Of a stretch of 64,000 nt of DNA, positions 6,416 to 61,440 are shown one piece after another. The translations under genes and the position numbers were made by a program. The stretch covers positions 1,011 through 65,010 of the forward strand of contig JBCCLN010000001.1 in NCBI GenBank assembly GCA_039026865.1. Direction: 5' to 3'. Within the stretch, counting starts at the first letter, position 1. Each line of letters starts with the position of its first letter. Source of the DNA: Bacteroidota bacterium (GTDB taxonomy: Bacteria; Bacteroidota; Bacteroidia; Cytophagales; Cyclobacteriaceae). The notes beneath the pieces were generated by a model, which saw only the letters and a program-made list of their open reading frames with translations, was not told the origin of the DNA and did not search any database.

Positions 6416-6833
6416 TGGCTACAATAATGAAATTAATTAATAATTTAGATTAGTCTAAAAATAGTAATAGGAGAATTTAGATTCATCTAAATTATACATA
6501 AAACATTGATAATAAGATTTATAATATGTTTTTGTTAAACAATTACTTGAAGTCAAGAAGATTTATATTTTATTTTTTCTCACCCTTTTTTCAAAACTTG
6601 TTTTGTTCTATAACTAATATTTTTAGCAAAAAATATCCTATCCAAAATAGGAAAGTAATTTACTTTAATTTTCTTAATTTTTTCTAAGAAGTAAAATTTT
6701 GATATTATTTTTAGCAAATCCTTATTTTCCAGAAGTTTTTTGGTTAGAACATATTACTTAAACACATTCATTTAATGAACATATTAATGATTCTATAATC
6801 ACCTAAAAATCAAGAATATATGGGATTAAACAG

Positions 6834-6975
6834 CACTACTTTGTGGAATAAAATGGTCTTGCATTGCACTACTTTGTGGAAATAGAAGCCTTATATTGCA
6901 CCACTTTGTGGATAAATTTATTTTTAACGTCACCACTTTGTGGATGAGTTTATCCACATGTCACCACTTTGTGGA
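6834..6975. repeat. Iteron array with DnaA boxes (putative oriV)
   Basis: Five copies of CACYACTTTGTGGA at 6834, 6867, 6899, 6931 and 6962 (spacing 33, 32, 32, 31). Perfect DnaA boxes TGTGGATAA 6907-6915 and TTATCCACA 6950-6958. Very AT-rich stretch 6420-6830. Confidence 0.85.
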
Positions 6976-7287: not shown

Positions 7288-8589
7288 TTGTATCAAAAAA
7301 AGGGTGTGATTGAGTTAGAATACGCACACAACCGAGATAAGGAGCTGATACATATTTCTGAGGTTTCGACAGGGGATCGAGGCCTGCAATGCCCCTTTTG
7401 TTTCGGTGAGATCTTAGCTAAGAAAGGCTTAGTGAAGGAGCATCATTTTGCGCATGTGAAAGACAGCTGTTTAGCCTTAGCCAAACCGTATGAACCTAAA
7501 GAGTGGCCGATTCATTTATCATTATTACAATATCATCAATGGTATTATCAGCGAATTGAAAACGATTACAACGAATTAAAAGATCAGGTCAGTAGGCTGC
7601 GGGAATGGAATAACCTAGCAAATAAGGAAATAGAACAGACCGTAGCAACTCTAAAATTGATGTCGGCTCCATTGAATGGAAAACTTCCTAAGAATAGAGA
7701 ACTGAACCGAAAGGCACTTGATGCATTACTTAACTATAAGGGGAATTTCATAGAACTTTTGGATGCCTTTTCAAGGGTGCGTTTCTCTAAAATTAAGCGT
7801 TATAGCTTGATCCAACATCCTTCATATATGCAGTATGAAAAACGAAACTCCGAAAAGATTTATCCTCGAAGCGTTTGGGAATATTATGACGTAAAGCAAA
7901 TCAATCATATTTCTGGTCCTTATATATTTCCTGAGTCTTTCGAAGAGTGCTTGTATTATCTCTATCATTACTCAAAGAATCAATTGGAGTTGAAAGAAAA
8001 AGAAAGAAGCTTGGCCACATTAAAAGATTTGCGGGATCAAAAAAGCTTACTTGATGAGTTTCACTTATACTATATAAAGATATCAAGACAAGGTGCTGCA
8101 CCTATTTATAAGATTGGGATTACGGCCAGGGATATGGGAAAACGGTTATCAGAAATCCAATCTGACCTTAAAGAAATGAGCACCCTAAATTTTGAAGTTT
8201 TGTTTGTGTTAAAAGGGCTTGGACATTTAGAGACCTTTTTTAAACACAAGTACCAGGAATGGCAATTTGATTATAAGCATTTCACTGAATATTTTGAGTT
8301 GGCTACCGCTCAACATGAGCTTGTTATTGAAGAGTTGGAGCAATTGAAGTATCATATTTCAGAGCGCCGTGAAAAAATCAAAAAAGGAATGGCACGCGCA
8401 AAGGCTAACGGTGTTCATGTCGGTAGGCCGAAAGGATCAGAAAAAATGCAACGCTTTATGGCCAAGCCAAAAAACCAGGAGATTGCTACATTATTGAAAT
8501 CGGGATTAAAGCTCAGGGAAGTAGAAAGAAAAACTGGATGTTCAATAAACACGGTGCGAAAAGTGGAGCAAGCATTATCGGTCAATTAA
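7288..8589 (+). CDS. Fusion protein: CoiA-like Zn-finger N-terminus, GIY-YIG (T5orf172-like) domain, resolvase-type C-terminal HTH
   Basis: LQCPFCFGEILAKKGLVKEHHFAH; YYIKI...IYKIGIT...KRL...LETFFKH...TEYF; EKIKKGMARAKANGVHVGRP...GCSINTVRK. TTG start. Confidence 0.7.
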   Translation: MYQKKGVIELEYAHNRDKELIHISEVSTGDRGLQCPFCFGEILAKKGLVKEHHFAHVKDSCLALAKPYEPKEWPIHLSLLQYHQWYYQRIENDYNELKDQVSRLREWNNLANKEIEQTVATLKLMSAPLNGKLPKNRELNRKALDALLNYKGNFIELLDAFSRVRFSKIKRYSLIQHPSYMQYEKRNSEKIYPRSVWEYYDVKQINHISGPYIFPESFEECLYYLYHYSKNQLELKEKERSLATLKDLRDQKSLLDEFHLYYIKISRQGAAPIYKIGITARDMGKRLSEIQSDLKEMSTLNFEVLFVLKGLGHLETFFKHKYQEWQFDYKHFTEYFELATAQHELVIEELEQLKYHISERREKIKKGMARAKANGVHVGRPKGSEKMQRFMAKPKNQEIATLLKSGLKLREVERKTGCSINTVRKVEQALSVN

Positions 8590-8680
8590 AGATTGAAGCA
8601 TTAGCGCTCAAGGGAATAGCGAGTAATTATTTCGTTTTTTAAATTTCATTTAATTTGGTTTTTAACCATTAATCGAAAAT

Positions 8681-9250
8681 ATGAAATTTGGTTTTGCGAG
8701 AATAAGTAAACGTGATCAAAACCTTGATCGGCAGATAGATTTACTGATTGCTAAAGGAGTTAAGAGAGAGAACATAATTGTTGAAAAGTTGTCTGGCAGA
8801 AAGGAACAAGTTAAGCTTGATAAACTAGTGCAGGACAAAATGCGTGAAGGTGATACCCTGGTAGTAGAAAGTGTTGGCCGTCTCGGACTGACTATCAAAG
8901 AACTAATAAATCTTCTGGACTACTTGAAAGTAAAAGATATTGCCTTTATAAGTTTGAAAGAAAGAATAGATACATCTACTGCTATGGGTCAAGCTTTAAT
9001 GCAAAATGTTGCTATCCTAAAACAGATGGAAGTTGAGATTCTTCGAGAGCGGACAATGGAAAGGCCAAAATCAGCAAGGGCCAGGGGAAGAAAGGGCGGA
9101 CGGCCAAAAGGAACTTACAATAAAATTAAAGCCAATGCAGCTGCTCGTCAATACACACAAGGTGTTCCAGTTGGTCAGATTATAAAAGACCTGGAGATAA
9201 GTACATCTACTCTATATAATTATCTGAGACGTGAAGGTGTAAAAAAATAA
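8681..9250 (+). CDS. Small serine recombinase (resolvase/invertase family)
   Basis: GFARISKRDQNLDRQ (catalytic Ser retained), GDTLVVESVGRLG, ARARGRKGGRP, C-terminal HTH (ISTSTLYNYL). Confidence 0.92.
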   Translation: MKFGFARISKRDQNLDRQIDLLIAKGVKRENIIVEKLSGRKEQVKLDKLVQDKMREGDTLVVESVGRLGLTIKELINLLDYLKVKDIAFISLKERIDTSTAMGQALMQNVAILKQMEVEILRERTMERPKSARARGRKGGRPKGTYNKIKANAAARQYTQGVPVGQIIKDLEISTSTLYNYLRREGVKK

Positions 9251-9293
9251 TTTCGATAAATGGGTTTTGATTAATCGAAATTTTGTATATTTG
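9251..9293 (+). promoter_or_regulatory. Imperfect palindrome overlapping a Bacteroidota-type -33/-7 promoter candidate
   Basis: TTTCGATAA...TTAATCGAAA at 9251-9280; TTTG at 9266-9269 and TATATTTG (TAnnTTTG) at 9286-9293. TTAATCGAAA also occurs at 8669-8678, just before the recombinase start. Confidence 0.45.
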
Positions 9294-9417
9294 AATATGA
9301 TAGGGAAGTAGTTAATGGTTTCCGACCTAGTATTGCTAGTCATTATCGAGCGGTAAAAATTACACCGGTTAACGAAATATTACCACTGCACAACGTATAA
9401 ACAGACGAAGAATAGAA

Positions 9418-9723
9418 ATGGAATATACACCAGAAGAAATATTGCATTATTCACTTAGATGGATCTACAATTTCCACAAAGATGATCTTCAATCTGCACA
9501 TGCAAAATACCATTGTGGTCCTGATTATCATTGGGATAAGTATTTGGGAAAGCTTAAAGAAGGAGTAAATGCCACACAAGCAATGACCGGAGTAGTACTG
9601 AACATGGATGATGAAGGGAAAAAACTATTAATTGATTGGGTTTTAGAAAATTCAAAAGGGCAGATAGAGGATAATAGATGGCTGAAAGAAGCCCAAAGGA
9701 AACACCTAGAGAAGTATAAATAA
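9418..9723 (+). CDS. Hypothetical protein
   Basis: Clean 101 aa ORF, no recognised motif. Confidence 0.6.
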   Translation: MEYTPEEILHYSLRWIYNFHKDDLQSAHAKYHCGPDYHWDKYLGKLKEGVNATQAMTGVVLNMDDEGKKLLIDWVLENSKGQIEDNRWLKEAQRKHLEKYK

Positions 9724-9728
9724 GGAGT

Positions 9729-10087
9729 ATGGAGTTAACCCCATTTTATAGAGGCAAGTTGAAATATAAGTACATCGGAAAAAGAATTGATTATACCTCA
9801 GTTCGTAACTTCATATTAGATTCTGATTTAACTGATGGTTGTGGATCTTTGATGAAGAATTGTTTCCTTTTCAAAGTCAGGAATTCCGCAACCATTCTCC
9901 TGATGGATTCTCCTGGGGATACGGCGGATCTGGACCGGCACAACTAGCACTGGCTATCTGCGTGGAATTGTTTGGCGAAGACCTAGCTTTAAACGTTTAT
10001 CAGTCTTTTAAATCTAAGTATATTGCTATTTTACCTAAGACCGATTTTGAATGTGATTTGGTTGTTAATTTGAATGAATTGAAATAA
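9729..10087 (+). pseudogene. DUF6166-like protein split by a one-base frameshift near 9838 (or a sequencing error)
   Basis: The second frame has RNHSPDGFSWGYGGSGPAQLALAI. The first frame starts at 9729 after AAGGAG. Adding one base at ggttgtgg joins them. Confidence 0.6.
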
Positions 10088-10373: not shown

Positions 10374-11780
10374 TCAGTAATCCCAGGCTCCTGCTCCAGT
10401 ATCAGCCACCACCCAATCAGACCGTAGCTTACCATTGCTGGCAAGCTTTCGTGAGATAGAAGGGTCTTTGGTCAATTTAGAATAACATTTCAATGTGTGC
10501 ATAGTGTCGTCATAGTTCTTTATCCTGAAAGCTGGTACATGGTCTGGTGCAATACGTTGATGAATACAATAAAGAGCAATATGAACCATGCACCTTATCA
10601 AGTTCTTGTTCCTGGGGTCTGTTGTTTCCTTGAATTCAATCTTATTGTTCTCGAAAGTTGCAGCGTTTACATACATGACAGTTTCCCCCGGCAATTGATA
10701 ATTAACGCCTTCATATGCTACATACGCGCCGGCAGCATATGAAACTGTTTCATCATACGCTTCAACGGTTACCGCTTTCCAATTCGCTGATGCCTCGTCA
10801 GGCGCAATACCTGCTTGGATATTCAATAACCCAAAAAGCTCATAGAATGCATCATTATAGCTAACAATCAATCCAACATTAGATGCGGAATAATCAAAAC
10901 CTGGGTCAAACGTATTAAAAGCCACTTGATTCCAAAACTGCGTCAAGCCTGGAAAGAAATGCAACCTACCCTTTGGGTTTATCTCCATTTTAGATAGATA
11001 GAATTCATTGTTGAATCTCACATAGTCGGTAGGCTTAAAAAAGGCGCCCACAGCAAATTCGAAGAATTGCTTAGGCTGCCATGCACCAGACACATATTCA
11101 ACCAGTGTAAAGTCATTGGTATCGACACCTAGATCACCACTCACAGGAGCAACTATTGTTGTGAAGTCTACCAGGTTTTGATTTATCCAAGGATTAAAGA
11201 AAGGTTGAACCACCTCATTAATGAGGTCACCATTCTCCTTAGCGCATTCGTACCACCCCCCTTTATATTTTACGATATCCGTTGGCTCATAATTACCGTC
11301 CTGGCTGTAGACCTTAGTAGACACTAAGATCCAAAACATATCATTCGGAACAGACTGACCCGAGCTGGCCACGTAGCCCTCATAGCGGAGCTGATAGAGC
11401 GCGTTATCGTATTCCACGTAATCACCAACAGAATAAGATGTTTTCAGCGGATCAAAGACTTCATCTGCAAGCTCATTCCAGTAAGTTTCATATCCGGGTT
11501 TTCTGGCCGGATTCAAATAACCTTGTACCTGATAGAGCTTATCGTTTACCCAAACATTGTCACCCTTTAGAGTTTCTTTTTGCACGCTAAAGTCCCTGGT
11601 ATCCAGACCAATCTGGAAAGCGGCTTCTACCTCATACTCATTTGTCAGATATGAGATGATTTCTTCCTTGGCGTCTTCCTCAGAATCAATAATAATTTGG
11701 TTATTGCCTGCGATTAATTGATCAAAATGTTTTTGCTGTATGAAACGGTAATAGTCTGAGTTTCTTAAAAATCGTACCAT
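10374..11780 (-). CDS. Head-tail connector (Mu gp36/DUF1320-like) with a large inserted array of CBM5/12-like repeats
   Basis: The N-terminus (SEEDAKEEIISYLTNEYEVEAAF) and C-terminus (DPRNKNLIRCMVHIALYCIHQRIAPDHVPAFRIKNYDD) resemble gp36-like adaptors; about six aromatic repeats lie between them. It follows terL. Confidence 0.65.
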   Translation of the reverse strand: MVRFLRNSDYYRFIQQKHFDQLIAGNNQIIIDSEEDAKEEIISYLTNEYEVEAAFQIGLDTRDFSVQKETLKGDNVWVNDKLYQVQGYLNPARKPGYETYWNELADEVFDPLKTSYSVGDYVEYDNALYQLRYEGYVASSGQSVPNDMFWILVSTKVYSQDGNYEPTDIVKYKGGWYECAKENGDLINEVVQPFFNPWINQNLVDFTTIVAPVSGDLGVDTNDFTLVEYVSGAWQPKQFFEFAVGAFFKPTDYVRFNNEFYLSKMEINPKGRLHFFPGLTQFWNQVAFNTFDPGFDYSASNVGLIVSYNDAFYELFGLLNIQAGIAPDEASANWKAVTVEAYDETVSYAAGAYVAYEGVNYQLPGETVMYVNAATFENNKIEFKETTDPRNKNLIRCMVHIALYCIHQRIAPDHVPAFRIKNYDDTMHTLKCYSKLTKDPSISRKLASNGKLRSDWVVADTGAGAWDY

Positions 11781-17737: not shown

Positions 17738-18463
17738 TTAAAATTTAAAATGATCCCTGGCTCTTTCTTTTATTTGCTCATTCGATTTTCCGCTACCGTT
17801 TCTTAATAAACTAACATAGCGTTGAAAAAGTCCGTTAGAAACTTCTGTATCATATTGAGCGCTATGAGCGGCAAATAGTTCTATACCAAACCTCTCCGCT
17901 ACATCACTTAAGTTATGGCTAATCACCTTTTCATTGGGGGCAAAATACAACCTTGACAGTGATAAAGTGTCCATATAATTAGGCTGGAAATTACCGTAGA
18001 AATCTTCTTTACCGGCAAAGTATTTTCTCGGATCGTGGCCGGTATAACCGCATAGTTGTTGAAGAAAGCCAATGTCAAATACGATATTATGTCCTACTAA
18101 TATCGGTTTAGTGCGCCGCCCGTTATCCAAATTCACTTTCTTGATCTTTTCAAATAGTTCAACCGCTACCTCCTGCAAAGGCTTACCTTTCTTTTCCAAA
18201 AGTTCTTTTGTGATATTGGTGTCCCTTTTCATCATATCCCAGTCATATTCCATTTGCACCGGATCTTCACGCTCAGCCTTTTTGACAATACGCTTCCTTA
18301 AGTCTTTGCGATGATACATTGAAACGTAAGACTGATATCTCTGTAGCTCTTTAAAATCATCAGCTCTAAAGGCTATCATCCCCACCTCAGTGATACCACA
18401 TTTAACCGAGTCTAATCCCCCTGTCTCAAAGTCCAGGCCCACAAAATGATTCATTTTCTTCAT
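17738..18463 (-). CDS. DEDDh 3'-5' exonuclease (DnaQ/epsilon-like)
   Basis: ExoI VGLDFETGG, ExoII GHNIVFDIGFL, ExoIII AHSAQYDT. Confidence 0.9.
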   Translation of the reverse strand: MKKMNHFVGLDFETGGLDSVKCGITEVGMIAFRADDFKELQRYQSYVSMYHRKDLRKRIVKKAEREDPVQMEYDWDMMKRDTNITKELLEKKGKPLQEVAVELFEKIKKVNLDNGRRTKPILVGHNIVFDIGFLQQLCGYTGHDPRKYFAGKEDFYGNFQPNYMDTLSLSRLYFAPNEKVISHNLSDVAERFGIELFAAHSAQYDTEVSNGLFQRYVSLLRNGSGKSNEQIKERARDHFKF

Positions 18464-22519: not shown

Positions 22520-25500
22520 TTAAATTATTTCCAGTTCCGTCTTAGCATAACTCATTAAAGCGTTATTATCCATATAGTCGTCGTATACGATCTTGGCATT
22601 TACTACCACAATACGCCCTTGAGAGTTAATTACCTCGTCTCTGTAGCCCCCCCACACGTCAGGCCAAATTGTCATAAGGATGAGGTCTTCATTAGACTGT
22701 ATGGTCAGCTTACCCATTGGTCCGTGCTTTGTTGGATATTCTTTCACTTTATTAATGCTGCCACAGGCCACATAGAGTTTATTCCGTTTATTTTCATCAT
22801 CGATAGTAGCAGGGTCAAGCAAGGACAAATTTTTGTGTTTCTTAGATGATTGTGAACTGTAATACACATTTTTGTAATTGATAGTCCCTAGTCCACTCAT
22901 CTCAATTTGCTTGCTACTCCAAAAGAAATTCTTAGTGATTTGATCTTTGGGGTACTCGTGCCCATTGATGGCGTGATGTAGATAGTTATGATACGTTTTC
23001 AAAATACCATACCTGTCCGAAAGCTGATCTATACCTTCAATTTCATCGAAACACCCTGACAAAATCATGTGCATGATCTGCTTTTTATTAATGGTTTTTG
23101 TCTTCATCCGGTCAACAAAGCCTAGGAAGCTATCATATAAACCATTCTCCTCTCTATCTTTAACGATCTCTTTCACCCCTTTTTCACCTACAAAACGTAT
23201 TCTGCTTAGCGACCAATAAATTTTACCTCGCTGAAAATCCGTCTTGAATCTTACATGACTGTAATTAATATTCGGTGGCACAATGTTCACCTCTTCCAGT
23301 TTATTAATTTCGGCAATGAGCGCCCTAAGTTTTTCATCTTTAGCAAATTGAAGTGCTGAAGTGTAGAAATAAATCGGGTAGTTGGCTTTAAGCCATGCGC
23401 TACGATAAGCCATAATAGTGTAACACACTGCATGAGATTTGTTAAATCCATATCCGGCCCCTTTCTCTATCTTATTCCAGATCTGAAGTGCTACAAATTC
23501 ATCACATCCATTTTTCACCGCTCCTTCAATGAACTTGCGTTTATACGAATCCATCAGTTCCTTGATTTTTTTACCCATTGCCTTTCGCACACCATCCGCT
23601 TCAACGTGTGAGAAGCCCGCAATCACCCGGGTAGCCTCCATCACCTGTTCCTGATAAATCATAATCCCATAAGTACTCTTGGTAACTTCTTCCAACCTCC
23701 AGTCATACACTGGTTCCATTTCTCCCGCTTTTAACTTCACATAATCATTATGCGCGTCAATATCCATAGTGGCTGGGCGATATAATGCATTCGCTGCTGT
23801 GAGGTCGTCAATACAGGTAGGCTTCATCTCCATGATGTATTTAGTCATTCCTTCTCCATTAAACTGAAAGATGTCTTGTGTCACTCCATATTGGAAAAGC
23901 TCATAAACTTTAGGATCGTCCAAAGGAAGGTAATCTAAATCAACTTTTTTGCCCGTCTGCTCTTGAATCATCTTAACCATATAATGCTGCTTATCAAGCG
24001 CATCAGAGGCTAGTATATCTTCTTTCAAAAAACCTGCTAACTCAACCATACCTCCCTCCCATTCAGAAATCAAAGTATCATCATGAACACGTAAAGGCAA
24101 CCAATCATAAGCTTCCATGGGCTTTGATTTATCTTTCTTGGGGGTAATCACCATTGCCGCCGGATGTATGGATTGTGACTTAGGCTGGCCGATCAATAAG
24201 CGCATCGGCTCAATCACCCCAGGGTAATCATTTACAAAAGCTTTTAACTTCTTATTGTGCTGACACTCCATAAAGAATTCAGGCATATTCATTTTGATAG
24301 CCTCCTTATCTGAAATCCCTTTGGATAAAGAATTCATCAACTTTGTGTCCACGCCTTTCACTCTGGCAATGTCTTTCATTGTCGCCTTGATTCTCAGGGT
24401 GGTAAACATACCAATAGCAAATACATGATCTTTCCCGTAACGATCACGCATATATTCTTTTACCTCTTGCCTTCGTTCAGATTCCAAATCCACATCAATA
24501 TCTGGAAGGCCCGAGGAAACCCGTTTCTCATTCAGGAACCGTTCAAAGATCAAACCATATTTAATGGGGTCTACGCTAGTAATGCCAAGCAGATAGGAAA
24601 TCAGCGAACCCGCCGCAGATCCTCGACCGGGGCCCACGTAGATATCACGCTGCTTACACCAGTTAATGAGATCCCAAAGGATAAGAAAATAATCTACAAA
24701 ACCTCGGTCATTTCCAGTAGCCTCAGAAGCAATATCTCGAATAACTCTAATTTCCCTTTCCAGGCGCTCATTATAGAGATTTTCCTTCCCTTTAGGAACT
24801 TTTTGGTCGAAGCTATCATCTAGTAAGGCTTCGAACAAATCATTTTGGCCCGCAAACTCGGCTTTCTCTCTTGTAGTCATTTCATATACAGGAAGATGAA
24901 GGGAGGATGTAGCTATTTTCACTTTTGCCCGCTCCGATATCCAAACCGTATTCCCCGCAGCTCGTTCAACTAATCTTTCTAATCGGTTCAAATCATTAGC
25001 CCTGAAAAGAGCCTGTAATTGGTTGTAGTGATCCTCAAAGTGTTTGAAGTATTGATCCTTACTAAGATAATGCGAGGCGCCGGTATCAATTTTATTCAAA
25101 AGCTTTTTTACTTCAAAGTCATCCTTATCCAGGTAGTAAGTGTCAGATAGTAGCACGGGAGCCAACTTCCAATCAGGATAAGTATCCAGGTATTCCTTCG
25201 CATATCCAAGGTGGTCCGCATCTATTTGGTTATGAAGAAACTCACTAACATCTAGCTGATAAAATGCCTCATCAAAATGAATGCTCATCAAATCTGCTGT
25301 GTTTCGCTCAGGTATCCAACACTTACCAAAAACAAAAACATTTCCTTCTCCATAGTTTGATAGTTCGGGAAGGGTGATATATGGATCTTTCCATCTGTCT
25401 ACATTCAATAATTTACTGATACGCAATAGGCCTGCCCATCCTTGCTGAGTGGTGGCGTACACCTTAACCTCATTTTTCTTCCCCTCATGAAGCACATCCA

Positions 25501-26032
25501 TTGACATACCAAAAATAGGCTTGATGCCCGCCTCAACCGCAGCTACCTGGAAGGGTAACGTACCGGCTAGTGTATGCTTTTCACAAATACCCAAAGCATC
25601 CATTCCGTAAAACTTGGCTTTCTTGCACCACATGGCGTAGTCCATAGACCCATTCAGCAATTCATACTTGCCGTGCACACCCAAATTAGTATAAGCTTTG
25701 TATACTTCATAATTCGGTTCGCCAATGTATTTAAATAAATTCATTTCGGCCGGCGATGCCTTGCATGGCGTGTAGTAGAAGCAGCGTCCAAAAAGATATA
25801 CAATGAAGGCTATGCCATCTTCGGTCAGTTCCTCTTCATCAGTATCCTGCAAAATAAGGTCCATATTTTTATCAAAGACGGCTTCATCGCCATTATCAAA
25901 AACATAGAACTTACCAACGCTATTGATTTCCAACACATCATCTTCAATCCAGTCAACTTTTAAGCGATGATCATAAATCCAGTCTTTTAGCCCTTCTCTC
26001 ATTGCAAGGTTCTTACTCATTTGGGATACCAA
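22520..26032 (-). CDS. dnaE: DNA polymerase III alpha subunit (family C)
   Basis: VGPGRGSAAGSLISYLLGIT, LIFERFLN, PDIDVD, HPAAMVI, GIMIYQEQVM, YGFNKSHA, N-terminal PHP-like region, C-terminal OB fold. Confidence 0.96.
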   Translation of the reverse strand: MVSQMSKNLAMREGLKDWIYDHRLKVDWIEDDVLEINSVGKFYVFDNGDEAVFDKNMDLILQDTDEEELTEDGIAFIVYLFGRCFYYTPCKASPAEMNLFKYIGEPNYEVYKAYTNLGVHGKYELLNGSMDYAMWCKKAKFYGMDALGICEKHTLAGTLPFQVAAVEAGIKPIFGMSMDVLHEGKKNEVKVYATTQQGWAGLLRISKLLNVDRWKDPYITLPELSNYGEGNVFVFGKCWIPERNTADLMSIHFDEAFYQLDVSEFLHNQIDADHLGYAKEYLDTYPDWKLAPVLLSDTYYLDKDDFEVKKLLNKIDTGASHYLSKDQYFKHFEDHYNQLQALFRANDLNRLERLVERAAGNTVWISERAKVKIATSSLHLPVYEMTTREKAEFAGQNDLFEALLDDSFDQKVPKGKENLYNERLEREIRVIRDIASEATGNDRGFVDYFLILWDLINWCKQRDIYVGPGRGSAAGSLISYLLGITSVDPIKYGLIFERFLNEKRVSSGLPDIDVDLESERRQEVKEYMRDRYGKDHVFAIGMFTTLRIKATMKDIARVKGVDTKLMNSLSKGISDKEAIKMNMPEFFMECQHNKKLKAFVNDYPGVIEPMRLLIGQPKSQSIHPAAMVITPKKDKSKPMEAYDWLPLRVHDDTLISEWEGGMVELAGFLKEDILASDALDKQHYMVKMIQEQTGKKVDLDYLPLDDPKVYELFQYGVTQDIFQFNGEGMTKYIMEMKPTCIDDLTAANALYRPATMDIDAHNDYVKLKAGEMEPVYDWRLEEVTKSTYGIMIYQEQVMEATRVIAGFSHVEADGVRKAMGKKIKELMDSYKRKFIEGAVKNGCDEFVALQIWNKIEKGAGYGFNKSHAVCYTIMAYRSAWLKANYPIYFYTSALQFAKDEKLRALIAEINKLEEVNIVPPNINYSHVRFKTDFQRGKIYWSLSRIRFVGEKGVKEIVKDREENGLYDSFLGFVDRMKTKTINKKQIMHMILSGCFDEIEGIDQLSDRYGILKTYHNYLHHAINGHEYPKDQITKNFFWSSKQIEMSGLGTINYKNVYYSSQSSKKHKNLSLLDPATIDDENKRNKLYVACGSINKVKEYPTKHGPMGKLTIQSNEDLILMTIWPDVWGGYRDEVINSQGRIVVVNAKIVYDDYMDNNALMSYAKTELEII

Positions 26033-26244
26033 TGATATTTCTCGCCTCGATTTGATTTCTCCATCATCATATCTTCTACTCTTTGAGCTACTCCCACATG
26101 CTCTTCAATCAATAGTGGTAGTAAATATTCTCTTATTTGCTCCCTTTGCTGGCGGAAATTTTTGGGGCACTGAGAACGAATAACTCCTTCAATTTTTTCG
26201 CCTTTTACCCAAAATTCATAGCCACATTTTTTTTCTTCTTCCAC
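26017..26244 (-). CDS. Hypothetical protein
   Basis: Tightly packed between primase and dnaE. Confidence 0.55.
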   Translation of the reverse strand: MEEEKKCGYEFWVKGEKIEGVIRSQCPKNFRQQREQIREYLLPLLIEEHVGVAQRVEDMMMEKSNRGEKYHWYPK

Positions 26245-26245
26245 T

Positions 26246-27262
26246 TTATTTTAATGTTTTAATTGCCACTTTTTCAATACCATAATCAATCGGATGGTAA
26301 AGGCTATTTAAAACCCTCTCTATCTCTTCCACACTCAGGTCACCTGCGTCCTTCTCACTACCATTTTCATCTTTAAAATCTATATACCCAACAAGTACAT
26401 CGAAATACTTATTCAGCTCTTTCGATTTATACTTTGTCATACCTGTAGCGTCTGGATCAAACAAAATGATCAATTGCTTTACGCCCTTCGCCTGTAGCCA
26501 ATACACTTGCTCGTCACTGATCTTTTTGCCAAATGTGCAAACACACTTTAACTGATCCACATCATACAACAATAATTGTCTGGTAAGATTATGAACATCA
26601 AAAGCCCCCTCTACCAAAATCACACTGCTGGTCCGGCCTTCAATCAACTGGTCATAACCATATAGCATTTTAGCCATTTCATTACCGGTAGAGTTTTTAT
26701 ATCTTGGAATCAAGTAACCCTCTTTTGCTTTTTTTACCGTCGTATTATGCTGGTCTATCTTCCACTTAGGCCACACATGTCTGCAAACGTATCCGGTTAT
26801 TCTGCCATGCATATAAACAGGGAGGATCACATAATCTTTATATTTCCAATGCCTGGACCTTCCCCCTTCGAAGTAGAAATAATCATCATCATTCCAACCC
26901 CTCGAATCCAGGTAGTCATCACCGGCTACACGCCTGTAACCGATAGGCAAATTTTCGGTGGGTAAGTCAAGATCTAGTCCCTTTGACTCATTTTTAAACA
27001 GCAAATAATTATCTACTAAGTCCGTCTCAAAATCTGGGCCGCGAAGTAAATCTAGGCGCCCTAGTAGATGTAACAGCTTCCAGGCACCCCCCGATGCTGC
27101 GCACTTAAAGCACTGCCAGGGAAAAAGATCTTTTACAATTGAAACACCTAACTTTGCCTTAGCACCACAGATTGGGCAATCAGCGATGATATTCTTGCGC
27201 CTACTATCGTAAGAGACGTTATCCAAGATGTCGGCAAAGTCTTTGTCCGTGAGTGAATACAT
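26246..27262 (-). CDS. DNA primase (Zn finger plus TOPRIM)
   Basis: CPIC...CFKC Zn ribbon; ILVEGAFDV, FDPDATG, KDAGD. Confidence 0.9.
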   Translation of the reverse strand: MYSLTDKDFADILDNVSYDSRRKNIIADCPICGAKAKLGVSIVKDLFPWQCFKCAASGGAWKLLHLLGRLDLLRGPDFETDLVDNYLLFKNESKGLDLDLPTENLPIGYRRVAGDDYLDSRGWNDDDYFYFEGGRSRHWKYKDYVILPVYMHGRITGYVCRHVWPKWKIDQHNTTVKKAKEGYLIPRYKNSTGNEMAKMLYGYDQLIEGRTSSVILVEGAFDVHNLTRQLLLYDVDQLKCVCTFGKKISDEQVYWLQAKGVKQLIILFDPDATGMTKYKSKELNKYFDVLVGYIDFKDENGSEKDAGDLSVEEIERVLNSLYHPIDYGIEKVAIKTLK

Positions 27263-27392
27263 TACTTTTAAAATCTAAAAAATAATTGACTCTGTATTAC
27301 GAAAAGCTTATTTTTCACTTGCCACCTTATTAGGAATTATAGAGTATATCCCTTGTTCTGGTGCTCATATTCCAAAATCACTCTTCCTATTT

Positions 27393-28757
27393 CTATGCTG
27401 TCATTGACATCATAGTTCTCTTTTTATCATAAAATCGCTCATGGCCATACTTGGTACATATATCAAAAGAAAATCCTGCTTTTGTATACCTTGATTTGTC
27501 AATGAATAATCGCGCCATTTCATCCTCTAACTCTTCCCTGGTTCGATTGATCGTGATAAGCCAAGTTGCTGGTTTTATAATGCCTTTTGCTTCTGACACA
27601 TTGTAACGGGTAAGCACAAACGTTGGTTCATTCAATTTCTCAGGGTCCACTAACCCCGCTTGTGTTGCTGCAAAAACAACACAATGTAATTCTTTAGAAA
27701 TGTCCATCAGCTCGTTGGCAATTTTCATTCGCTTATGGCGCTCATCTTTTGGTGCCCAATCTCTTCGATCCGCAGTATCTAATAATTCCAGATAGTCTAA
27801 AACCAGCACATCAATTTTCTTGTCACTGGTTTTTTCAATATCCAGAATCATCTTGCGTACATCAGCGGTCGAAGCACTTTCTCCAAACTTCTCGTAGGCT
27901 TTAACAAAGATTTCTCCTTTAACCTTTTTATTAATGTAAAAATCATAGCTTTCCAATAGGTCAAGATCTAACAGCCCTGACTCTATGGTAGACATAGGCA
28001 CCCCCGTAATCGTTGCATCATACCCTATTAAAGTTTCATCCCTGGTACCTTCTAGCTGAACATGCAGTACATTTAATCCAAGCTTTGCGTTATGAGCACC
28101 TAGATGACGAAGACATTTCGTCTTTCCACCACCGGAAGATCCCATCACAACCACTAGGTTCCCCTTTTTCTTGCTTAAGCCGCCTGAGAGATGGTCTAGA
28201 AAATCTATTCCAAAGTAGGCTTTTTGTTCAGGTAAGTCATCTTCCAAGACCCGATTAGCTCTTGCCTGTAGAGAGCGATTGGTAAACCCACCCATCACCC
28301 GGTCATAAGTGTTCCCTTTCAATGAAAGATTATTAAGATCTTCACAAAGAGTCTGCAAGATCTTCAGCGCTTCTTTCTTGCCCTTCTCTCCTTTGTTATA
28401 GGCTACCCCTATCTTCTCATATCCAGTAACAAACATACTCTTTCGAATATACTCCTCAAGTTGGTCTGAAAGTTCATCAGGCGTGTTATCTACTTCGGTA
28501 TCCCTTATTTTCTCCAGTAAATCAAAGATATCATCATCATCTTCGAATTTCTGAAAAAGCATACCAATGGACATAGACTTGCCATAGGTAAGCCAGTGTT
28601 TCCTCAAGGCATTAAAAATAAACCGATAATCGTCATCTGGAAGTAGCTCCTCTCTTACATGATCAACCATGGTCGCCATCATGTCCTTATTGCGAAGCGC
28701 CAGGCCAATCACCTCATTAACTAAATTTTTATTAAAATGATGCTTCTTTTCTCTCAT
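27393..28757 (-). CDS. Replicative helicase (DnaB/T4 gp41-like)
   Basis: Walker A GSSGGGKT, QLEG, VLDYLEL, AATQ, DKSRY. Confidence 0.9.
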   Translation of the reverse strand: MREKKHHFNKNLVNEVIGLALRNKDMMATMVDHVREELLPDDDYRFIFNALRKHWLTYGKSMSIGMLFQKFEDDDDIFDLLEKIRDTEVDNTPDELSDQLEEYIRKSMFVTGYEKIGVAYNKGEKGKKEALKILQTLCEDLNNLSLKGNTYDRVMGGFTNRSLQARANRVLEDDLPEQKAYFGIDFLDHLSGGLSKKKGNLVVVMGSSGGGKTKCLRHLGAHNAKLGLNVLHVQLEGTRDETLIGYDATITGVPMSTIESGLLDLDLLESYDFYINKKVKGEIFVKAYEKFGESASTADVRKMILDIEKTSDKKIDVLVLDYLELLDTADRRDWAPKDERHKRMKIANELMDISKELHCVVFAATQAGLVDPEKLNEPTFVLTRYNVSEAKGIIKPATWLITINRTREELEDEMARLFIDKSRYTKAGFSFDICTKYGHERFYDKKRTMMSMTA

Positions 28758-28763
28758 TCACTA

Positions 28764-29027
28764 TCACCATAATTCTTGCATTTCTTCTTTTGAACAGGTT
28801 TTGATTTCAATGATTTGATCTAAATTCTTCACGGGTAAATAGCCGCCAGCCTTGCATATTGCTAAACCATATTTCGATTTACAAACCTGTTCAAGATACT
28901 TCTTTTTAAAAACTCGCTGAAAAGGAAGTAATTCAATATCACCTGCATTTTTTACTAGTAGGCGCCAGGTAGGGGCTTCTTTCGGCATTCCTTCAAAACG
29001 AAACTTTACAAGGGTATAATGCTTCAT
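28764..29027 (-). CDS. Hypothetical protein
   Basis: Co-oriented, 6 nt from the helicase start. Confidence 0.6.
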   Translation of the reverse strand: MKHYTLVKFRFEGMPKEAPTWRLLVKNAGDIELLPFQRVFKKKYLEQVCKSKYGLAICKAGGYLPVKNLDQIIEIKTCSKEEMQELW

Positions 29028-29061
29028 ATAAGCTGGTAAAAATAAAAGTATACATTAACTA

Positions 29062-29475
29062 TCAAAGACCTTCTTCAGAAAATTTTACATTATAGGTTTT
29101 ATAAATACTCCATTTATCTGATTCTTTACTTTTCTTATCCTTAATTTCATCTAGCTCTTCAAGATTCCATTGAATGATCCGTTTAAAATTTCTTGGCCTT
29201 AACATAGTCTCTAATGTAAAGTACTTTAATTGAACGCTGCTTTTGCTGGCTTTATCTTTTTGACGCTCAAAAGCTTCAATTATTTCTACTAATAATGGAT
29301 CGAAAGCTTCAAGGGTATAGCCTTTAAAATAATCTTCAAGCCTTCTCTCCAAGTGTCCTACTTCAAGGGCATCCAACTTTTTCTGTCTGGTACGTGGCTT
29401 CACTTCCGTGATCATATCCAAAAGCCGGTGGCCCAGGTACTTGGCCTTTTCTTTGATGTATTGATCTTTAGTCAT
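29062..29475 (-). CDS. Hypothetical protein
   Basis: Overlaps the sigma factor stop. Confidence 0.6.
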   Translation of the reverse strand: MTKDQYIKEKAKYLGHRLLDMITEVKPRTRQKKLDALEVGHLERRLEDYFKGYTLEAFDPLLVEIIEAFERQKDKASKSSVQLKYFTLETMLRPRNFKRIIQWNLEELDEIKDKKSKESDKWSIYKTYNVKFSEEGL

Positions 29476-30064: not shown

Positions 30065-30114
30065 CTACTCTATAAAGATTCTAAAAATTATATGCTTTCT
30101 AATGATTCCTAAGT

Positions 30115-32636: not shown

Positions 32637-32697
32637 ATCAGTTTTTTATAAGCCAGAATCTTATCCGTAGTGGGAATAGTACAAACTGAATAACCAT

Positions 32698-33774: not shown

Positions 33775-33854
33775 AATAAGGCATTAAAAATACCCGAAAC
33801 TATCAATTCAATAGGTTTATTTGGCAATTTCTTTACCCCTTTTGATGCACCGTC

Positions 33855-55021: not shown

Positions 55022-55034
55022 GTAATGGAATTAT

Positions 55035-55340: not shown

Positions 55341-55433
55341 GCTTTTGCCTTGACAGCTAGGCCCCTTATTAAAGATTTAGTCCTATTCCTTAAAGAGCTA
55401 ATACGCTTAGTTAACATTCAACCCATTTCTACA

Positions 55434-59229: not shown

Positions 59230-59232
59230 ATA

Positions 59233-61440
59233 TTATCTGGTAAATAACTGCTGTCCTTCCGTGACAGATTTTCTAATATCATCCACAAATTTAGACGGGA
59301 CATTAAAGTAAGGGTGATGCTCCCCAAATATAACCCCCGTCTCACCAACATTACCTCTAAACACTTCAGGAACTTCCGAAATGTCAGGTAACTTTCGGTC
59401 CTTATTGATTGTTCTTCCGTCAGTAGTACCCGTATCAAATACGGTACATCTGCACCCATATTCCCATGGCGGCAAGAAGTAGCCCCAAAACGAATCGTTC
59501 TTTCGCCTGCGTATACCGTCTAATTGTTGATGATTAGCACGCACGCGATCATCGCCTACTGTCTGGTACTGGAGGATGGTATTGGGATCATCGATACCTC
59601 GCCATATGGCTGAAACCCGCATCGAATGTTCGATATGATTAGACTCTGCAGTAAAAAAAAGTTTATTGTATATGGAATTCAATTTTCTGCTCTCCGCCTG
59701 GAATAAATCTAATCTTCCTTTGAAGCTATCTTTGGATTGATGGATGGAATGAAGCAATTGGAATTGCTTTACGGCAGCAAAAGCCCAAACGTGATCCCAT
59801 ACACCCCGAAAATATTTATTTTCGGGGTGTCCCAGGTCTATAGTTCCAAGATCCACACCATATCCTGATCTCACAGCCTCCAAAAATTGCTCAGCGCTTT
59901 TTAACACAAGATCTGCATCTGTAACTATTTCCTCGCCCTCTAATATTTGCGGTAGGAGAGGGGCTAATATTTCGTAATACTCCTCATGTTTCTTAGGAGC
60001 TATTGCATTGATTAGCTTGACACGGTCAGCAAGATGCGTATGTCCTCTGGCTGGCTCGTAGATTTTAGACACTGAAGTAAGGAGTGGATGCTTGGCTGTA
60101 TCTAGTCCTACAGAAGCAATGATAGTATCAAAAATTCCTGTGGTGCTTTTATTCAACGAAGCAGCAATAGTTGATTGGTTTCTTAAAAAGTTCACTTGAT
60201 CATCGCCTGCACCTCCGGTTTCCAGGAGACCGCCATTGCTTTCTTTCAGGATTTGACGGCCTACTTTGATCCCCGTCTGTTTCTCAATTTCTTCAGGGTC
60301 AATCTCATAGCTCTTGGTCAATACATCAAGTATTTCCTTCACTTCACCGGGAGACAATTCATTGTTATTACTATAAACAAATTCCTGGTCACCCCTAATC
60401 GCCATACCCTTTTCCCTGAATCGCCACATAAACTGTTCATTAACAACATGTACAACAAACTCACGCATTGCCTCTACGTGGTTTTTGTAAATTTGATATT
60501 GAATCTGAGCAGCTCCCACATAGGTTTGCTGTTCCGTGGTCGCCGTCTGGCTTAGAATAAGCTTGGTCAGCTCATCATTGCATACTCTCACCAGTTCTGT
60601 ATAAATCTTATTGGTATCATTGGAAATCTGATCTTTGATATCAATTTCATCATCAATGCCCGTGATGATGATTCGCTGGTCCCTGGAAGAAGCAATCTCA
60701 TTAGCCAGTCTTTGTTTATCCTCTGTTTCATCCATAACCGTTTTACCATGCACCAGAGGGACACCATAAGTTTCTGCTGTCTGGGTATGAGCCGAAATAG
60801 CGAAACGTTTAGACATTACCATAGGCGCAGCTTTCAAAAGCCAACCAAACTGCTCATCCCCATCAATAAGCACATAATCTGTTCTAAATCGATCGGTGGT
60901 GACATCCCACCCTGCGTTATCTTCAGGATATTCAAGTATCAGATGATCGCCCGGAGCCACATTGCGTCGCTCAATCGATTCAATTTTCTCCAGTGTGCCC
61001 GTGTTTGGATTCACCCCCCCCAACTCAATCATACTGTACGCGTACAGCTTGGAAAACAAAATCTCTTTCACAAGTTTTGTAAACCATCGGGTTCGAATCA
61101 GCTTGGTCGCTGCATCATCCCTGCTCCTATCTGCATTAGCTATAAAATACCGCTCCCCTAAAATGTGATGAAATAGCGTATTGATTATACTGGTAAGATG
61201 CAAGTCCTGCATCGTATAATCATAAATATCCATTAACCTAAAGCGATGATCAACCCGGCTGCTAAGATGCTTGTAATACTTGTAGTTACTTACATACTGA
61301 TATTCACGTAAATAATCCGCAACCCTTTTTTTCCCCCGGTCATAATAAGCATAAAGCTTGTCAAATTCAATACCATCGGTTCTGGTAGGCCCCATTCCTG
61401 AGAATATAGATCGATTCATTCCTGCGCTATTCAATGGCAT
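59233..61440 (-). CDS. Portal protein (Mu gp29/DUF935-like) fused to minor head protein (Mu gpF/SPP1 gp7-like)
   Basis: N-terminal portal motifs (DLHL, GWLLKAAP, ETYGVP, NDELTKLILSQT) and C-terminal LQYQTVGDDRVRANHQQLDG...PPWEYGCRCTV, in one frame. Confidence 0.85.
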   Translation of the reverse strand: MPLNSAGMNRSIFSGMGPTRTDGIEFDKLYAYYDRGKKRVADYLREYQYVSNYKYYKHLSSRVDHRFRLMDIYDYTMQDLHLTSIINTLFHHILGERYFIANADRSRDDAATKLIRTRWFTKLVKEILFSKLYAYSMIELGGVNPNTGTLEKIESIERRNVAPGDHLILEYPEDNAGWDVTTDRFRTDYVLIDGDEQFGWLLKAAPMVMSKRFAISAHTQTAETYGVPLVHGKTVMDETEDKQRLANEIASSRDQRIIITGIDDEIDIKDQISNDTNKIYTELVRVCNDELTKLILSQTATTEQQTYVGAAQIQYQIYKNHVEAMREFVVHVVNEQFMWRFREKGMAIRGDQEFVYSNNNELSPGEVKEILDVLTKSYEIDPEEIEKQTGIKVGRQILKESNGGLLETGGAGDDQVNFLRNQSTIAASLNKSTTGIFDTIIASVGLDTAKHPLLTSVSKIYEPARGHTHLADRVKLINAIAPKKHEEYYEILAPLLPQILEGEEIVTDADLVLKSAEQFLEAVRSGYGVDLGTIDLGHPENKYFRGVWDHVWAFAAVKQFQLLHSIHQSKDSFKGRLDLFQAESRKLNSIYNKLFFTAESNHIEHSMRVSAIWRGIDDPNTILQYQTVGDDRVRANHQQLDGIRRRKNDSFWGYFLPPWEYGCRCTVFDTGTTDGRTINKDRKLPDISEVPEVFRGNVGETGVIFGEHHPYFNVPSKFVDDIRKSVTEGQQLFTR

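What the first reader, a model, noticed from the sequence alone, without database searches (positions are those of the whole stretch)
10374..11780. Neck adaptor expanded about threefold by an array of CBM5/12-like repeats
Seen: gp36-like N- and C-terminal halves are separated by ~330 aa holding about six units such as FDPLKTSYSVGDYVEYDNALY, YSQDGNYEPTDIVKYKGGWY, FDPGFDYSASNVGLIVSYNDAFY and YDETVSYAAGAYVAYEGVNY, most preceded by a Trp. Known: Y..GD.V.Y.G..Y is the chitin-binding CBM5/12 signature, and gp36-type adaptors are normally ~140 aa and ring-forming. Inference: the virion would carry a multivalent glycan-binding collar, possibly binding the host's polysaccharide substrate or capsule.
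Basis: partly seen in the sequence, partly recalled or inferred. Interest (0 to 1): 0.62.

Follow-up and report, generated by a model that had tools for sequence, protein, structure and literature searches.

The report
Phage neck adaptor with built-in repeat collar
The ring protein that joins head to tail in this marine Bacteroidota phage has six small sugar-binding-type modules spliced into one loop, and relatives carry none to about seven at the same spot; the modules lack the residues that bind chitin, so what the collar does is still open.

Summary
ORF 10374-11780 (-), 468 aa, overlaps the large terminase stop (TAATG). It is a Mu gp36/DUF1320-type head-tail adaptor. About 325 aa of beta structure are inserted in one loop between its N- and C-terminal helices.

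- **Repeats:** a repeat profile finds six units, plus one 40-aa non-repeat beta-meander.
- **Unit fold:** the unit is a CBM5/12 fold. Pfam scores 29.3 bits (cut-off 26.2), the unit profile hits solved chitin-binding domains at 1e-8, and an AF2 unit model gives TM 0.63-0.79.
- **Adaptor identity:** this rests on relatives. An exhaustive search gives 259 cluster representatives; 111 of the best 150 hit PF07030. Foldseek finds Mu gpJ.
- **Family pattern:** the insert always sits at the same site, in steps of about 48 aa (0 to about 7 units). Copy number changed at least 46 times among 133 proteins. This protein is at the long extreme.

Chitin binding is not supported. The CBM5 aromatic pair and the CBM12 tryptophan are absent family-wide, and the host MAG (near Ekhidna) has no GH18 and no other CBM5/12.

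Likeliest function is an accessory neck collar of 72 modules for weak multivalent polysaccharide adhesion. That function is inferred. This is a new variant of a known kind; I found no paper describing it.

The parts
10374..11780 (-). Whole gene: 468-aa head-tail adaptor with an inserted repeat array (P0001)
   Evidence: AF2 model with mean pLDDT 93 and pTM 0.85
11595..11780 (-). aa 1-62: N-terminal helices of the gp36/DUF1320 adaptor core (H7-11, H16-23, H27-45, H51-59)
   Evidence: The N-domain profile (aa 4-55) is found in 142 of 150 relatives. With the insert removed, the PF07030 match spans profile positions 11-96.
11460..11585 (-). aa 66-107: unit 0, a truncated CBM5/12-like unit lacking the first strand, ending in W101
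   Evidence: unit profile hit at aa 73-101, 19.6 bits
11319..11459 (-). aa 108-154: unit 1 (FDPLKTSYSVGDYVEYDNALY...W150)
   Evidence: unit profile hit at aa 109-150, 31.4 bits
11169..11318 (-). aa 155-204: unit 2 (YSQDGNYEPTDIVKYKGGWY...W198)
   Evidence: Unit profile 36.9 bits. AF2 of this unit alone gives pLDDT 92.5. Foldseek TM 0.63-0.79 to solved CBM5/12 domains.
11046..11168 (-). aa 205-245: extra three-stranded beta-meander, not a CBM-like unit. Present in P0002 and P0004; absent from P0003 and shorter relatives.
   Evidence: strands E217-220, E225-230, E233-236; alignment A3; 29 of 41 positions are gaps in P0003
10920..11045 (-). aa 246-287: unit 3 (FKPTDYVRFNNEFY...W283)
   Evidence: unit profile 10.7 bits
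10767..10919 (-). aa 288-338: unit 4 (FDPGFDYSASNVGLIVSYNDAFY...W334)
   Evidence: unit profile 17.4 bits
10629..10766 (-). aa 339-384: unit 5 (YDETVSYAAGAYVAYEGVNY...), lacking the terminal Pro/Trp. This is the best Pfam CBM_5_12 stretch.
   Evidence: Pfam stretch at aa 341-362; unit profile 23.7 bits
10479..10628 (-). aa 385-434: C-terminal helices of the adaptor core (DPRN...; H392-410, H417-434)
   Evidence: PF07030 stretch at aa 392-431. The C-domain profile is found in 141 of 150 relatives. D388, P389 and R390 are invariant in A3.
10374..10478 (-). aa 435-468 plus stop: extended C-arm. By analogy with Mu gp36, this is the part that inserts into the portal clip.
   Evidence: No regular secondary structure, and pLDDT falls to 50-71. 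The Mu gp36 C-arm forms a four-stranded sheet with the portal clip (PMC11915804).
11780..13219 (-). Large terminase subunit, immediately upstream and probably translationally coupled (TAATG)
   Evidence: PHROG terminase large subunit, E 4e-26
59233..61440 (-). Mu-type portal fused to a Mu F-like domain: the presumed docking partner of the adaptor
   Evidence: Portal_Mu E 3.9e-45, Phage_Mu_F E 7.9e-10

Best explanation
The gene encodes the phage's head-tail adaptor, of the Mu gp36 / gene product J / DUF1320 type. By analogy with Mu, twelve copies form the ring under the Mu-type portal. The helical core builds the ring and the floppy C-arm plugs into the portal clip. In the loop between the N-terminal helices and the helix that starts at DPRN, the protein carries about 325 aa: six CBM5/12-fold beta-modules plus one extra beta-meander. 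An insert of that size on each of twelve subunits can only lie on the outside of the ring. The virion should therefore carry a collar of 72 such modules around its neck. Relatives carry 0 to about 7 unit-lengths at this same site, and the number changes often, so the collar looks like an accessory rather than a part needed for assembly. Its likeliest job is weak, multivalent adhesion to a polysaccharide: host capsule or exopolysaccharide, or marine particle or mucus glycans. This would not be chitin bound in the canonical way.

Shown: homology of the core and of the units, the fold, the fixed insertion site, and the graded copy number. Inferred: 12-fold stoichiometry, outward projection, and presence in the virion. 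Speculative: the ligand and any effect on adsorption.
For: **Core identity**
- PF07030 matches weakly on the native protein (13.4 bits).
- With the insert removed in silico, the match rises to 17.8 bits and covers profile positions 11-96 of 124.
- Exhaustive phmmer finds 259 cluster representatives.
- Of the best 150, 111 hit PF07030 (best E 2.4e-14) and 72 hit CBM_5_12 (best E 3e-14).
- Insert-free relatives align to Mu gp36 by hhalign at E 3.4e-5 over 107 columns.
- Their best PDB sequence matches are Mu gene product J, 9khx and 5ydn.
- The AF2 model (pLDDT 93, pTM 0.85) hits the Mu neck entries 9khx_A, 9knu_M and 5ydn by Foldseek at probability 0.80-0.84, with rmsd 1.0 A over 48 columns for 5ydn.

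**Context**
- The phage has a Portal_Mu portal and a Mu-collinear head module.
- No other gp36-like gene is found in the whole assembly.
- Short relatives annotated 'adaptor' or 'head-tail adaptor' in Porphyromonas and Bacteroides phage records, and an unannotated one in Flavobacterium phage fF4, lie beside or overlap the terminase gene.
- The long relatives also sit directly after the large terminase gene.

**Units**
- Pfam CBM_5_12 scores 29.3 bits against a cut-off of 26.2.
- The unit profile hits solved CBM12/CBM5 domains at 2.6e-8 to 7.6e-6.
- The unit model has TM 0.63-0.79 and rmsd 1.6-2.8 A to them.

**Series**
- The insert is at one site, with lengths 3, about 48, 95, 140, 160, 200, 215-255, 266, 308 and about 330 aa.
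- Copy number changes at least 46 times on 133 tips, against 81 +/- 2.8 for shuffled labels.

**Hints of adhesion**
- The insert is 18% aromatic, against 10% in the core.
- The same fold occurs in phage tail fibres and receptor-binding complexes: 7-7-1, A-1(L) and Milano.
Against: - P0001 itself does not reach the PF07030 cut-off, so the adaptor assignment is transitive.
- The gene is not between the capsid and tail genes as in Mu. It sits after the terminase.
- No virion proteomics or EM exists for this phage.
- Against glycan binding: the known binding aromatics of CBM5 and CBM12 are missing in nearly all units.
- The insert evolves no faster than the core: 49-69% against 50-61% identity to P0002. 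That is unlike a typical receptor-binding part.
- pTM 0.85 suggests a rigid, packed body rather than flexible beads.
- Outward projection is a steric argument. I could not inspect model coordinates.
Confidence: 0.5

Rival explanations
1. Same protein and same collar, but the modules are purely architectural. They would form a rigid skirt that braces the portal vertex against the capsid floor or the top of the sheath, or a docking platform for other neck appendages, as the T4 collar holds whiskers. There would be no sugar binding.
For: - The canonical binding aromatics are absent.
- The whole 468-aa chain is predicted as one confident body, pTM 0.85.
- The insert is conserved like the core.
- CBM5/12-fold modules occur as building blocks in phage fibres and in the Anabaena contractile injection system baseplate and cap.
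Against: - A brace or dock has to fit fixed partners. Yet the number of units runs from 0 to about 7 and changed at least 46 times among 133 relatives.
- Insert-free relatives evidently assemble without any collar.
- I identified no candidate docked appendage gene next to the adaptor.
Confidence: 0.3
2. One reading: a chitin-binding collar. It would tether the phage to chitin particles or to the polysaccharide substrate on which the host feeds.
For: - The units are true homologues of chitin-binding domains: 1ED7 at E 7.7e-8, Vibrio chitin deacetylase CBM12 at 2.6e-8, and TM about 0.7.
- The host lineage, marine Cytophagales near Ekhidna, lives in particle-rich water.
Against: - The CBM5 Y-W/W-W pair, nearly fully conserved and needed for binding (PMC8449059), is aromatic in only 3-5% of 233 units.
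- The position matching ChiA1 W687 is aromatic in 4% of units.
- The 91%-complete host MAG has no GH18 chitinase and no other CBM5/12 domain.
- Many relatives are in gut Bacteroides and oral Porphyromonas phages, where chitin is not an obvious substrate.
Confidence: 0.07
3. The protein is not a virion adaptor. It would be a gp36-derived protein recruited to another role next to the terminase, such as a packaging accessory or a secreted or lysis-released glycan-binding protein.
For: - It sits after the large terminase at the very end of the leftward gene block, not in the head-tail joining region.
- The direct PF07030 score is below the cut-off.
Against: - It keeps both halves of the adaptor core and the C-arm. 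D388, P389 and R390 are invariant among the 14 closest relatives (A3), and R390 is kept in at least 90% of the 150 (A1).
- It is the only gp36-like gene in a phage with a Mu-type portal.
- Insert-free relatives annotated as adaptors lie beside the terminase gene in several Porphyromonas phages.
Confidence: 0.05

Closest known systems
Bacteriophage Mu gp36 (gene product J; Pfam PF07030 / DUF1320); PDB 5YDN, 9KHX, 9KNU
   Same: - Helical domain plus extended C-arm.
- Sequence relationship through insert-free relatives: hhalign E 3.4e-5, and 111 of 150 relatives hit PF07030.
- Foldseek probability 0.80-0.84.
- It is partnered with a Mu-type portal.
- In Mu it is a dodecamer whose C-arm joins the portal clip sheet, and it docks the tail terminator directly (PMC11915804).
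   Different: - Mu gp36 is 141 aa with no insert. This protein carries about 325 extra residues in one loop.
- The gene sits after the large terminase, not after the capsid gene.
- P0001 itself scores below the Pfam cut-off.
CBM5/CBM12 chitin-binding domains (Pfam PF02839): B. circulans ChiA1 ChBD (1ED7), S. griseus ChiC ChBD (2D49), Vibrio chitin oligosaccharide deacetylase CBM12 pair (4NY2, 3WX7), S. marcescens ChiB CBM5
   Same: - Same small beta fold, TM 0.63-0.79.
- Same core signature: Y..GD.V.Y.G..Y ... P ... W.
- Significant profile matches.
   Different: - The surface aromatics that bind chitin are not kept.
- Six copies sit inside a virion ring protein rather than one or two on a secreted enzyme.
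- Most units carry a family-specific 'C..NG..F.DIRIPG' segment where the binding loop would be.
Expanded relatives in public records: Bacteroides phage BS-TP1 gp122 (340 aa, annotated hypothetical), UniProt A0A8S5N071 (338 aa), A0A6J5R4Q7 (281 aa, named 'Bacteriophage Mu, Gp36'), Flavobacterium phage lotta8-2 DUF1320 protein (190 aa)
   Same: - Same family, same insertion site and same kind of unit.
- BS-TP1 gp122 and the metagenomic homologue P0002 sit right after the large terminase gene; lotta8-2 and FPSV-S1 share the family and the unit.
   Different: - They carry fewer units, roughly 1 to 4.
- None is described or discussed in the papers I could search. The BS-TP1 paper does not mention the protein.
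Neck collars, whiskers and neck fibres made of separate proteins (T4 collar and whiskers, lactococcal neck passage structure, cyanophage A-1(L) neck fibres)
   Same: - Extra, often carbohydrate-directed, structures displayed at the head-tail junction.
- This comparison is from general knowledge. The A-1(L) neck fibres are from the abstract listed.
   Different: - Those are separate gene products docked on the neck.
- Here the appendage is an insertion inside the adaptor chain itself, so its stoichiometry is fixed at one array per ring subunit.

Membership tests
Mu gp36 / DUF1320 head-tail adaptor (PF07030) | The protein itself matches the Pfam model above the gathering score (24.7 bits) | tested here: not met
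   13.4 bits, E 0.086, on the native protein. 17.8 bits, E 0.0038, spanning profile positions 11-96 after in-silico removal of the insert. The six-frame family search of the assembly finds nothing.
Mu gp36 / DUF1320 head-tail adaptor (PF07030) | Homology to bona fide members through intermediate sequences | tested here: met
   111 of the 150 best relatives hit PF07030, best E 2.4e-14. N- and C-domain profiles are both found in 133 of 150. Insert-free relatives against Mu gp36 give hhalign E 3.4e-5, probability 72%. The top PDB sequence hits are Mu gene product J.
Mu gp36 / DUF1320 head-tail adaptor (PF07030) | Fold: helical domain plus extended C-arm | tested here: met
   AF2 gives helices at aa 7-59 and 392-434 and an unstructured tail at aa 435-468. 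Foldseek hits 5ydn, 9khx_A and 9knu_M at probability 0.80-0.84, but E-values are 1.1-2.3 because the query is multi-domain.
Mu gp36 / DUF1320 head-tail adaptor (PF07030) | Dodecameric ring bound to the portal clip in the virion | not testable with these tools
   Only indirect evidence: a Portal_Mu portal in the same phage, and this is the sole gp36-like gene.
Mu gp36 / DUF1320 head-tail adaptor (PF07030) | Gene lies in the head-tail joining block, after the major capsid gene as in Mu | tested here: not met
   The gene follows the large terminase. Only a 101-aa ORF lies between the capsid and sheath genes. Relatives in Porphyromonas, Bacteroides and Flavobacterium phages, several of them annotated as adaptors, also lie beside the terminase gene.
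CBM5/12 carbohydrate-binding module (PF02839) | Pfam model above the gathering score (26.2 bits) | tested here: met
   29.3 bits for P0001, 31.5 for P0002 and 29.0 for P0003. 72 of 150 relatives hit the model, best E 3e-14. Matches cover mainly the first half of the model (positions 1-22 of 44).
CBM5/12 carbohydrate-binding module (PF02839) | The small three-stranded beta fold of solved CBM5/12 domains | tested here: met
   The unit-2 model (pLDDT 92.5) has TMq 0.71 and rmsd 1.7 A to 2D49, 0.74 to 1WVV and 0.72 to VhCOD (probability 1.00), and 0.70 to ChiB (probability 0.99).
CBM5/12 carbohydrate-binding module (PF02839) | Exposed aromatic binding residues: consecutive Y-W/W-W in CBM5, and the Trp two residues before the conserved Pro in CBM12 (ChiA1 W687) | tested here: not met
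   Aromatic frequency over 233 family units is 0.03 and 0.05 at the pair positions and 0.04 at P-2. In P0001 only unit 3 has an aromatic (F) at P-2; that count is my reading of the sequence. The mapping comes from the 1ED7 alignment and PMC8449059. The role of W687 is from my own recall.
CBM5/12 carbohydrate-binding module (PF02839) | Binds chitin or cellulose | not testable with these tools
   This needs binding assays. Context does not favour it: the host MAG has no GH18 and no other CBM5/12.

The most novel reading that the evidence does not exclude
Bacteroidota phages have turned the head-tail adaptor into a tunable adhesion organ. CBM5/12-fold units have lost the chitin site and gained a new ligand surface: the family-specific NG..F.DIRIPG loop. 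They are stacked 0 to 7 deep on each of the twelve ring subunits. The resulting neck collar of up to 72-84 modules would hold virions on host capsule or EPS, gut mucus or marine polysaccharide particles. Copy number would be selected lineage by lineage for avidity. That would be a neck-located counterpart of capsid Ig-domain adherence to mucus.
Probability: 0.3. Interest if true: 0.7.

Novelty: new variant of a known kind. Interest (0 to 1): 0.52.

Why it matters
Head-tail adaptors are treated as small, invariant plumbing. This family shows one loop of the adaptor acting as an expansion slot that accepts 0 to about 7 modules. The slot is used across phages of gut Bacteroides, Flavobacterium and marine Cytophagales; the Porphyromonas matches seen here look insert-free. 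If the collar binds glycans, virion adhesion is not confined to tail tips and capsid decorations. It would also give a simple, countable trait (unit number) to relate to habitat. Cultivated phages carrying roughly 0, 1, 2 and 4 units already exist, so the question can be tested directly. On the practical side, several records, such as BS-TP1 gp122, could be re-annotated from 'hypothetical protein' to 'head-tail adaptor'.

Tried and rejected
- **PHROGs scan:** the protein gave only noise.
- **Word-indexed protein search:** found just two relatives. The exhaustive search was needed.
- **The search for related loci:** the protein in viral contigs gave nothing. Alignments A1 and A3 were too divergent to seed a scan. 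The terminase in genome contigs gave nothing.
- **Whole-chain Foldseek against the PDB:** gave only weak E-values because the chain is multi-domain. I therefore modelled and searched a single unit.
- **Misassembled fusion:** rejected. The same architecture is seen at 58%, 38% and 30% identity on independent contigs.
- **Shared module with the tail fibre or a host protein:** rejected. No other CBM_5_12 or unit-profile hit occurs in the ten large phage ORFs scanned or in the host assembly.
- **Circular contig:** considered, since it would put the adaptor next to the portal. The contig ends share no terminal overlap of 11-200 bases.
- **Literature:** searches for CBM-bearing or domain-bearing adaptors found nothing relevant. 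A search for W687 found no paper holding the term.
- **Model geometry:** I could not obtain model coordinates. Solvent exposure of aromatics and the shape of the array were not examined.
Full report
**1. The observation**

The finding's coordinates are exact. An ORF of 468 aa runs from 11780 down to 10374 on the minus strand. Its ATG shares one base with the TAA stop of the upstream gene (TAATG). That upstream gene is the large terminase subunit (PHROG E 4e-26).

A profile seeded on the units of this protein and iterated over its family finds six units, at aa 73-101, 109-150, 158-194, 246-283, 291-334 and 342-378.
- The first unit is truncated at its N-terminal side.
- The last unit lacks the terminal Pro and Trp.
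- Between units 2 and 3 lies a 40-aa three-stranded meander (aa 205-245) that is not a repeat.
- The Trp 'preceding' most units is the last core residue of the unit before it.

The repeat signal is far beyond chance. Against every stop-to-stop frame of 60 aa or more in the 4.4-Mb assembly (13,557 frames), the unit profile hits only this ORF, at E 2.8e-37.

**2. The two ends are a Mu gp36-type adaptor**

On its own the protein gives only a weak PF07030 match (13.4 bits, aa 392-431). Joining aa 1-70 to aa 384-468 in silico raises this to 17.8 bits. The match then spans profile positions 11-96 of 124, so both halves contribute. That is still under Pfam's cut-off of 24.7 bits.

The decisive evidence is transitive.
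- An exhaustive phmmer search of 1.84 billion representatives finds 259 proteins at E <= 1e-3, with lengths of 115 to 473 aa.
- Of the best 150, 111 hit PF07030 (best E 2.4e-14).
- Seven relatives with no or almost no insert (136-170 aa) align to Mu gp36 by hhalign over 107 columns (E 3.4e-5, probability 72%).
- The best PDB sequence matches of those relatives are Mu gene product J (9khx, 5ydn).

An AlphaFold2 model built with the 150-sequence alignment is very confident (mean pLDDT 93, pTM 0.85).
- Helices lie at aa 7-59 and 392-434.
- The region from aa 75 to 385 is nearly all beta.
- The tail from aa 435 is unstructured.

Foldseek finds the Mu neck chains 9khx_A and 9knu_M and the crystal structure 5ydn at probability 0.80-0.84. 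In Mu, gp36 is a dodecamer made of a helical domain and a C-arm. The C-arm inserts into the portal clip, and the ring docks the tail terminator directly (PMC11915804).

**3. Context**

The window is mostly one phage genome with a contractile-tail gene set.
- It has a Portal_Mu portal fused to a Mu F-like domain, a homologue of Mu G, a protease, a capsid protein, a sheath, a tube and a tape measure.
- The order matches Mu up to the capsid gene.
- Only a 101-aa ORF lies between the capsid and sheath genes, where Mu has gp35-gp38.

No other gp36-like gene exists in the assembly. This ORF is therefore the only adaptor candidate.

The position beside the terminase recurs in the lineage.
- Short relatives in Porphyromonas phage records, annotated 'adaptor', overlap or abut the terminase gene. 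Bacteroides phage records carry them as 'head-tail adaptor', and the fF4 match lies next to a putative terminase.
- The same synteny holds for the long homologues in a 102-kb metagenomic contig and in Bacteroides phage BS-TP1.

The host MAG's RpoB is 91-94% identical to that of an Ekhidna sp. MAG and of an unclassified Bacteroidota MAG, so the host is a marine member of the Cytophagales. The phage contig matches the rest of the MAG in composition.

**4. The insert is a graded, family-wide feature**

I located the N- and C-domain profiles in each relative. This shows a single insertion site, after the '...YL..EYE.E..F' helix and before the 'DPRN' helix. Insert lengths are quantised: 3 aa, about 45-50, 90-100, 115-145, about 160, about 200, 215-255, 266, 308 and 327-332 aa. 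The step is about 48 aa.
- Seven of 133 proteins have no insert.
- Most have two to four unit-lengths.
- Only P0001, P0002 and P0004 reach about seven unit-lengths, that is six units plus the meander.

On a tree of the core alone, the size class changes at least 46 times, against 81 +/- 2.8 for shuffled labels. The nearest neighbours of P0001 are the next-longest forms. Copy number is therefore heritable but labile, and this protein is the end of a lineage that kept growing.

In the host's order, 22 of 201 genomes hold a family member, and all but the window's own sit in open frames of 116-245 aa.

Among isolated phages, roughly:
- lotta8/pippi8 carry one unit;
- FPSV-S1 carries two;
- BS-TP1 gp122 (340 aa, 'hypothetical protein') carries four.

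BFVD also holds expanded members, such as A0A8S5N071 (338 aa, E 1.6e-26) and a 281-aa protein auto-named 'Bacteriophage Mu, Gp36'.

**5. The units have the CBM5/12 fold but not its binding site**

Evidence for the fold:
- Pfam CBM_5_12 passes its cut-off (29.3 against 26.2 bits).
- A 64-unit profile hits solved domains by sequence: the Vibrio cholerae deacetylase CBM12 (2.6e-8), the B. circulans ChiA1 chitin-binding domain 1ED7 over its full length (7.7e-8), a C. violaceum chitinase (4.7e-7) and P. furiosus 2RTS (7.6e-6).
- An AF2 model of unit 2 alone (pLDDT 92.5) superposes on CBM5/12 domains with TM 0.63-0.79 and rmsd 1.6-2.8 A.
- It superposes equally well on modules in phage tail fibres (7-7-1, A-1(L), Milano) and in an Anabaena contractile injection system.

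- In CBM5 the chitin contact is a consecutive Y-W/W-W pair that is almost fully conserved, while a Tyr and a Trp belong to the hydrophobic core (PMC8449059).
- In the CBM12 of ChiA1 the critical residue is W687, from my own recall. By the alignment it lies two residues before the conserved Pro.
- Over 233 units of the family, those positions are aromatic in 3%, 5% and 4% of cases.
- The core positions are aromatic in 96-100% of cases.
- Most units instead carry a family-specific 'C..NG..F.DIRIPG' segment there.

The host MAG has no GH18 chitinase and no CBM5/12 domain other than this one.

**6. What it most likely does**

Shown:
- an adaptor core with an inserted array of six CBM5/12-fold modules;
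- a fixed insertion site;
- variable copy number.

Inferred:
- twelve copies per virion, as in Mu;
- outward projection of the arrays, because about 37 kDa per subunit cannot fit in the DNA channel or at the portal or tail interfaces;
- hence a collar of 72 modules.

Function is open.

I favour weak multivalent adhesion to a polysaccharide other than chitin.
- Copy number is so labile, and insert-free relatives exist, that the collar looks like an accessory.
- The insert is rich in aromatics (18% against 10% in the core).
- The fold recurs in receptor-binding parts of other phages.

A purely architectural role (brace or dock) is a serious rival.
- The known binding residues are gone.
- The chain is predicted as one rigid body (pTM 0.85).
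- The insert evolves at the same rate as the core.

**7. Novelty**

The architecture is visible in public databases, but only as automatic names. I found no paper that describes an adaptor carrying CBM-type repeats.

Two other first-stage notes of this scan report the same pattern, with inserts of about 150 and 170 aa, in other genomes. A third reports a gp36 adaptor fused to a beta-helix. These agree with the family-wide picture but are unchecked notes.

I class this as a new variant of a known kind: a known ring protein used as an expansion slot for a known fold.

Noticed in passing
window 53732-61440 (-): The head module is collinear with Mu: a portal fused to an F-like domain, a 137-aa homologue of Mu G (phrog_26), a 179-aa ORF, a protease and the capsid gene. 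Only one 101-aa ORF (55035-55340) lies between the capsid and sheath genes, where Mu has gp35-gp38. I did not identify the tail terminator.
   Followed up: partly
window 7288-10087 (+): Downstream of the adaptor the strand flips. The genes there are a serine resolvase (8681-9250), a 433-aa protein with a CoiA-like zinc-finger N-terminus (7288-8589) and a DUF6166 protein (9839-10087). BS-TP1 has a tyrosine integrase at the equivalent place. This element may therefore be maintained differently, and other notes of this scan mention iterons at 6420-6975.
   Followed up: no
window 22520-37530 (-): The phage encodes much of its own replisome: a DNA polymerase III alpha-like protein of 1170 aa (22520-26032), a Toprim primase-like protein, a DnaB-like helicase, a UvrD-like helicase and a DEDDh exonuclease (17738-18463).
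   Followed up: no
window 38597-40882 (-): A 761-aa tail fibre or spike candidate has a C-terminal Peptidase_S74 intramolecular chaperone domain. It carries no CBM5/12 unit, so the adaptor repeats are not shared with the tail receptor-binding gear.
   Followed up: partly
L001 7157-8179 (Bacteroides phage BS-TP1, PQ571274 gp122): gp122 is annotated 'hypothetical protein', but it is a 340-aa member of this adaptor family with about four units, sitting directly after the large terminase. It is the best cultivated model for testing the collar.
   Followed up: partly
whole assembly G000: The host MAG (4.4 Mb, 489 contigs, 91% complete) is closest to Ekhidna (RpoB 91-94% identity). It shows no GH18 chitinase and no CBM5/12 domain apart from the phage adaptor.
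   Followed up: yes
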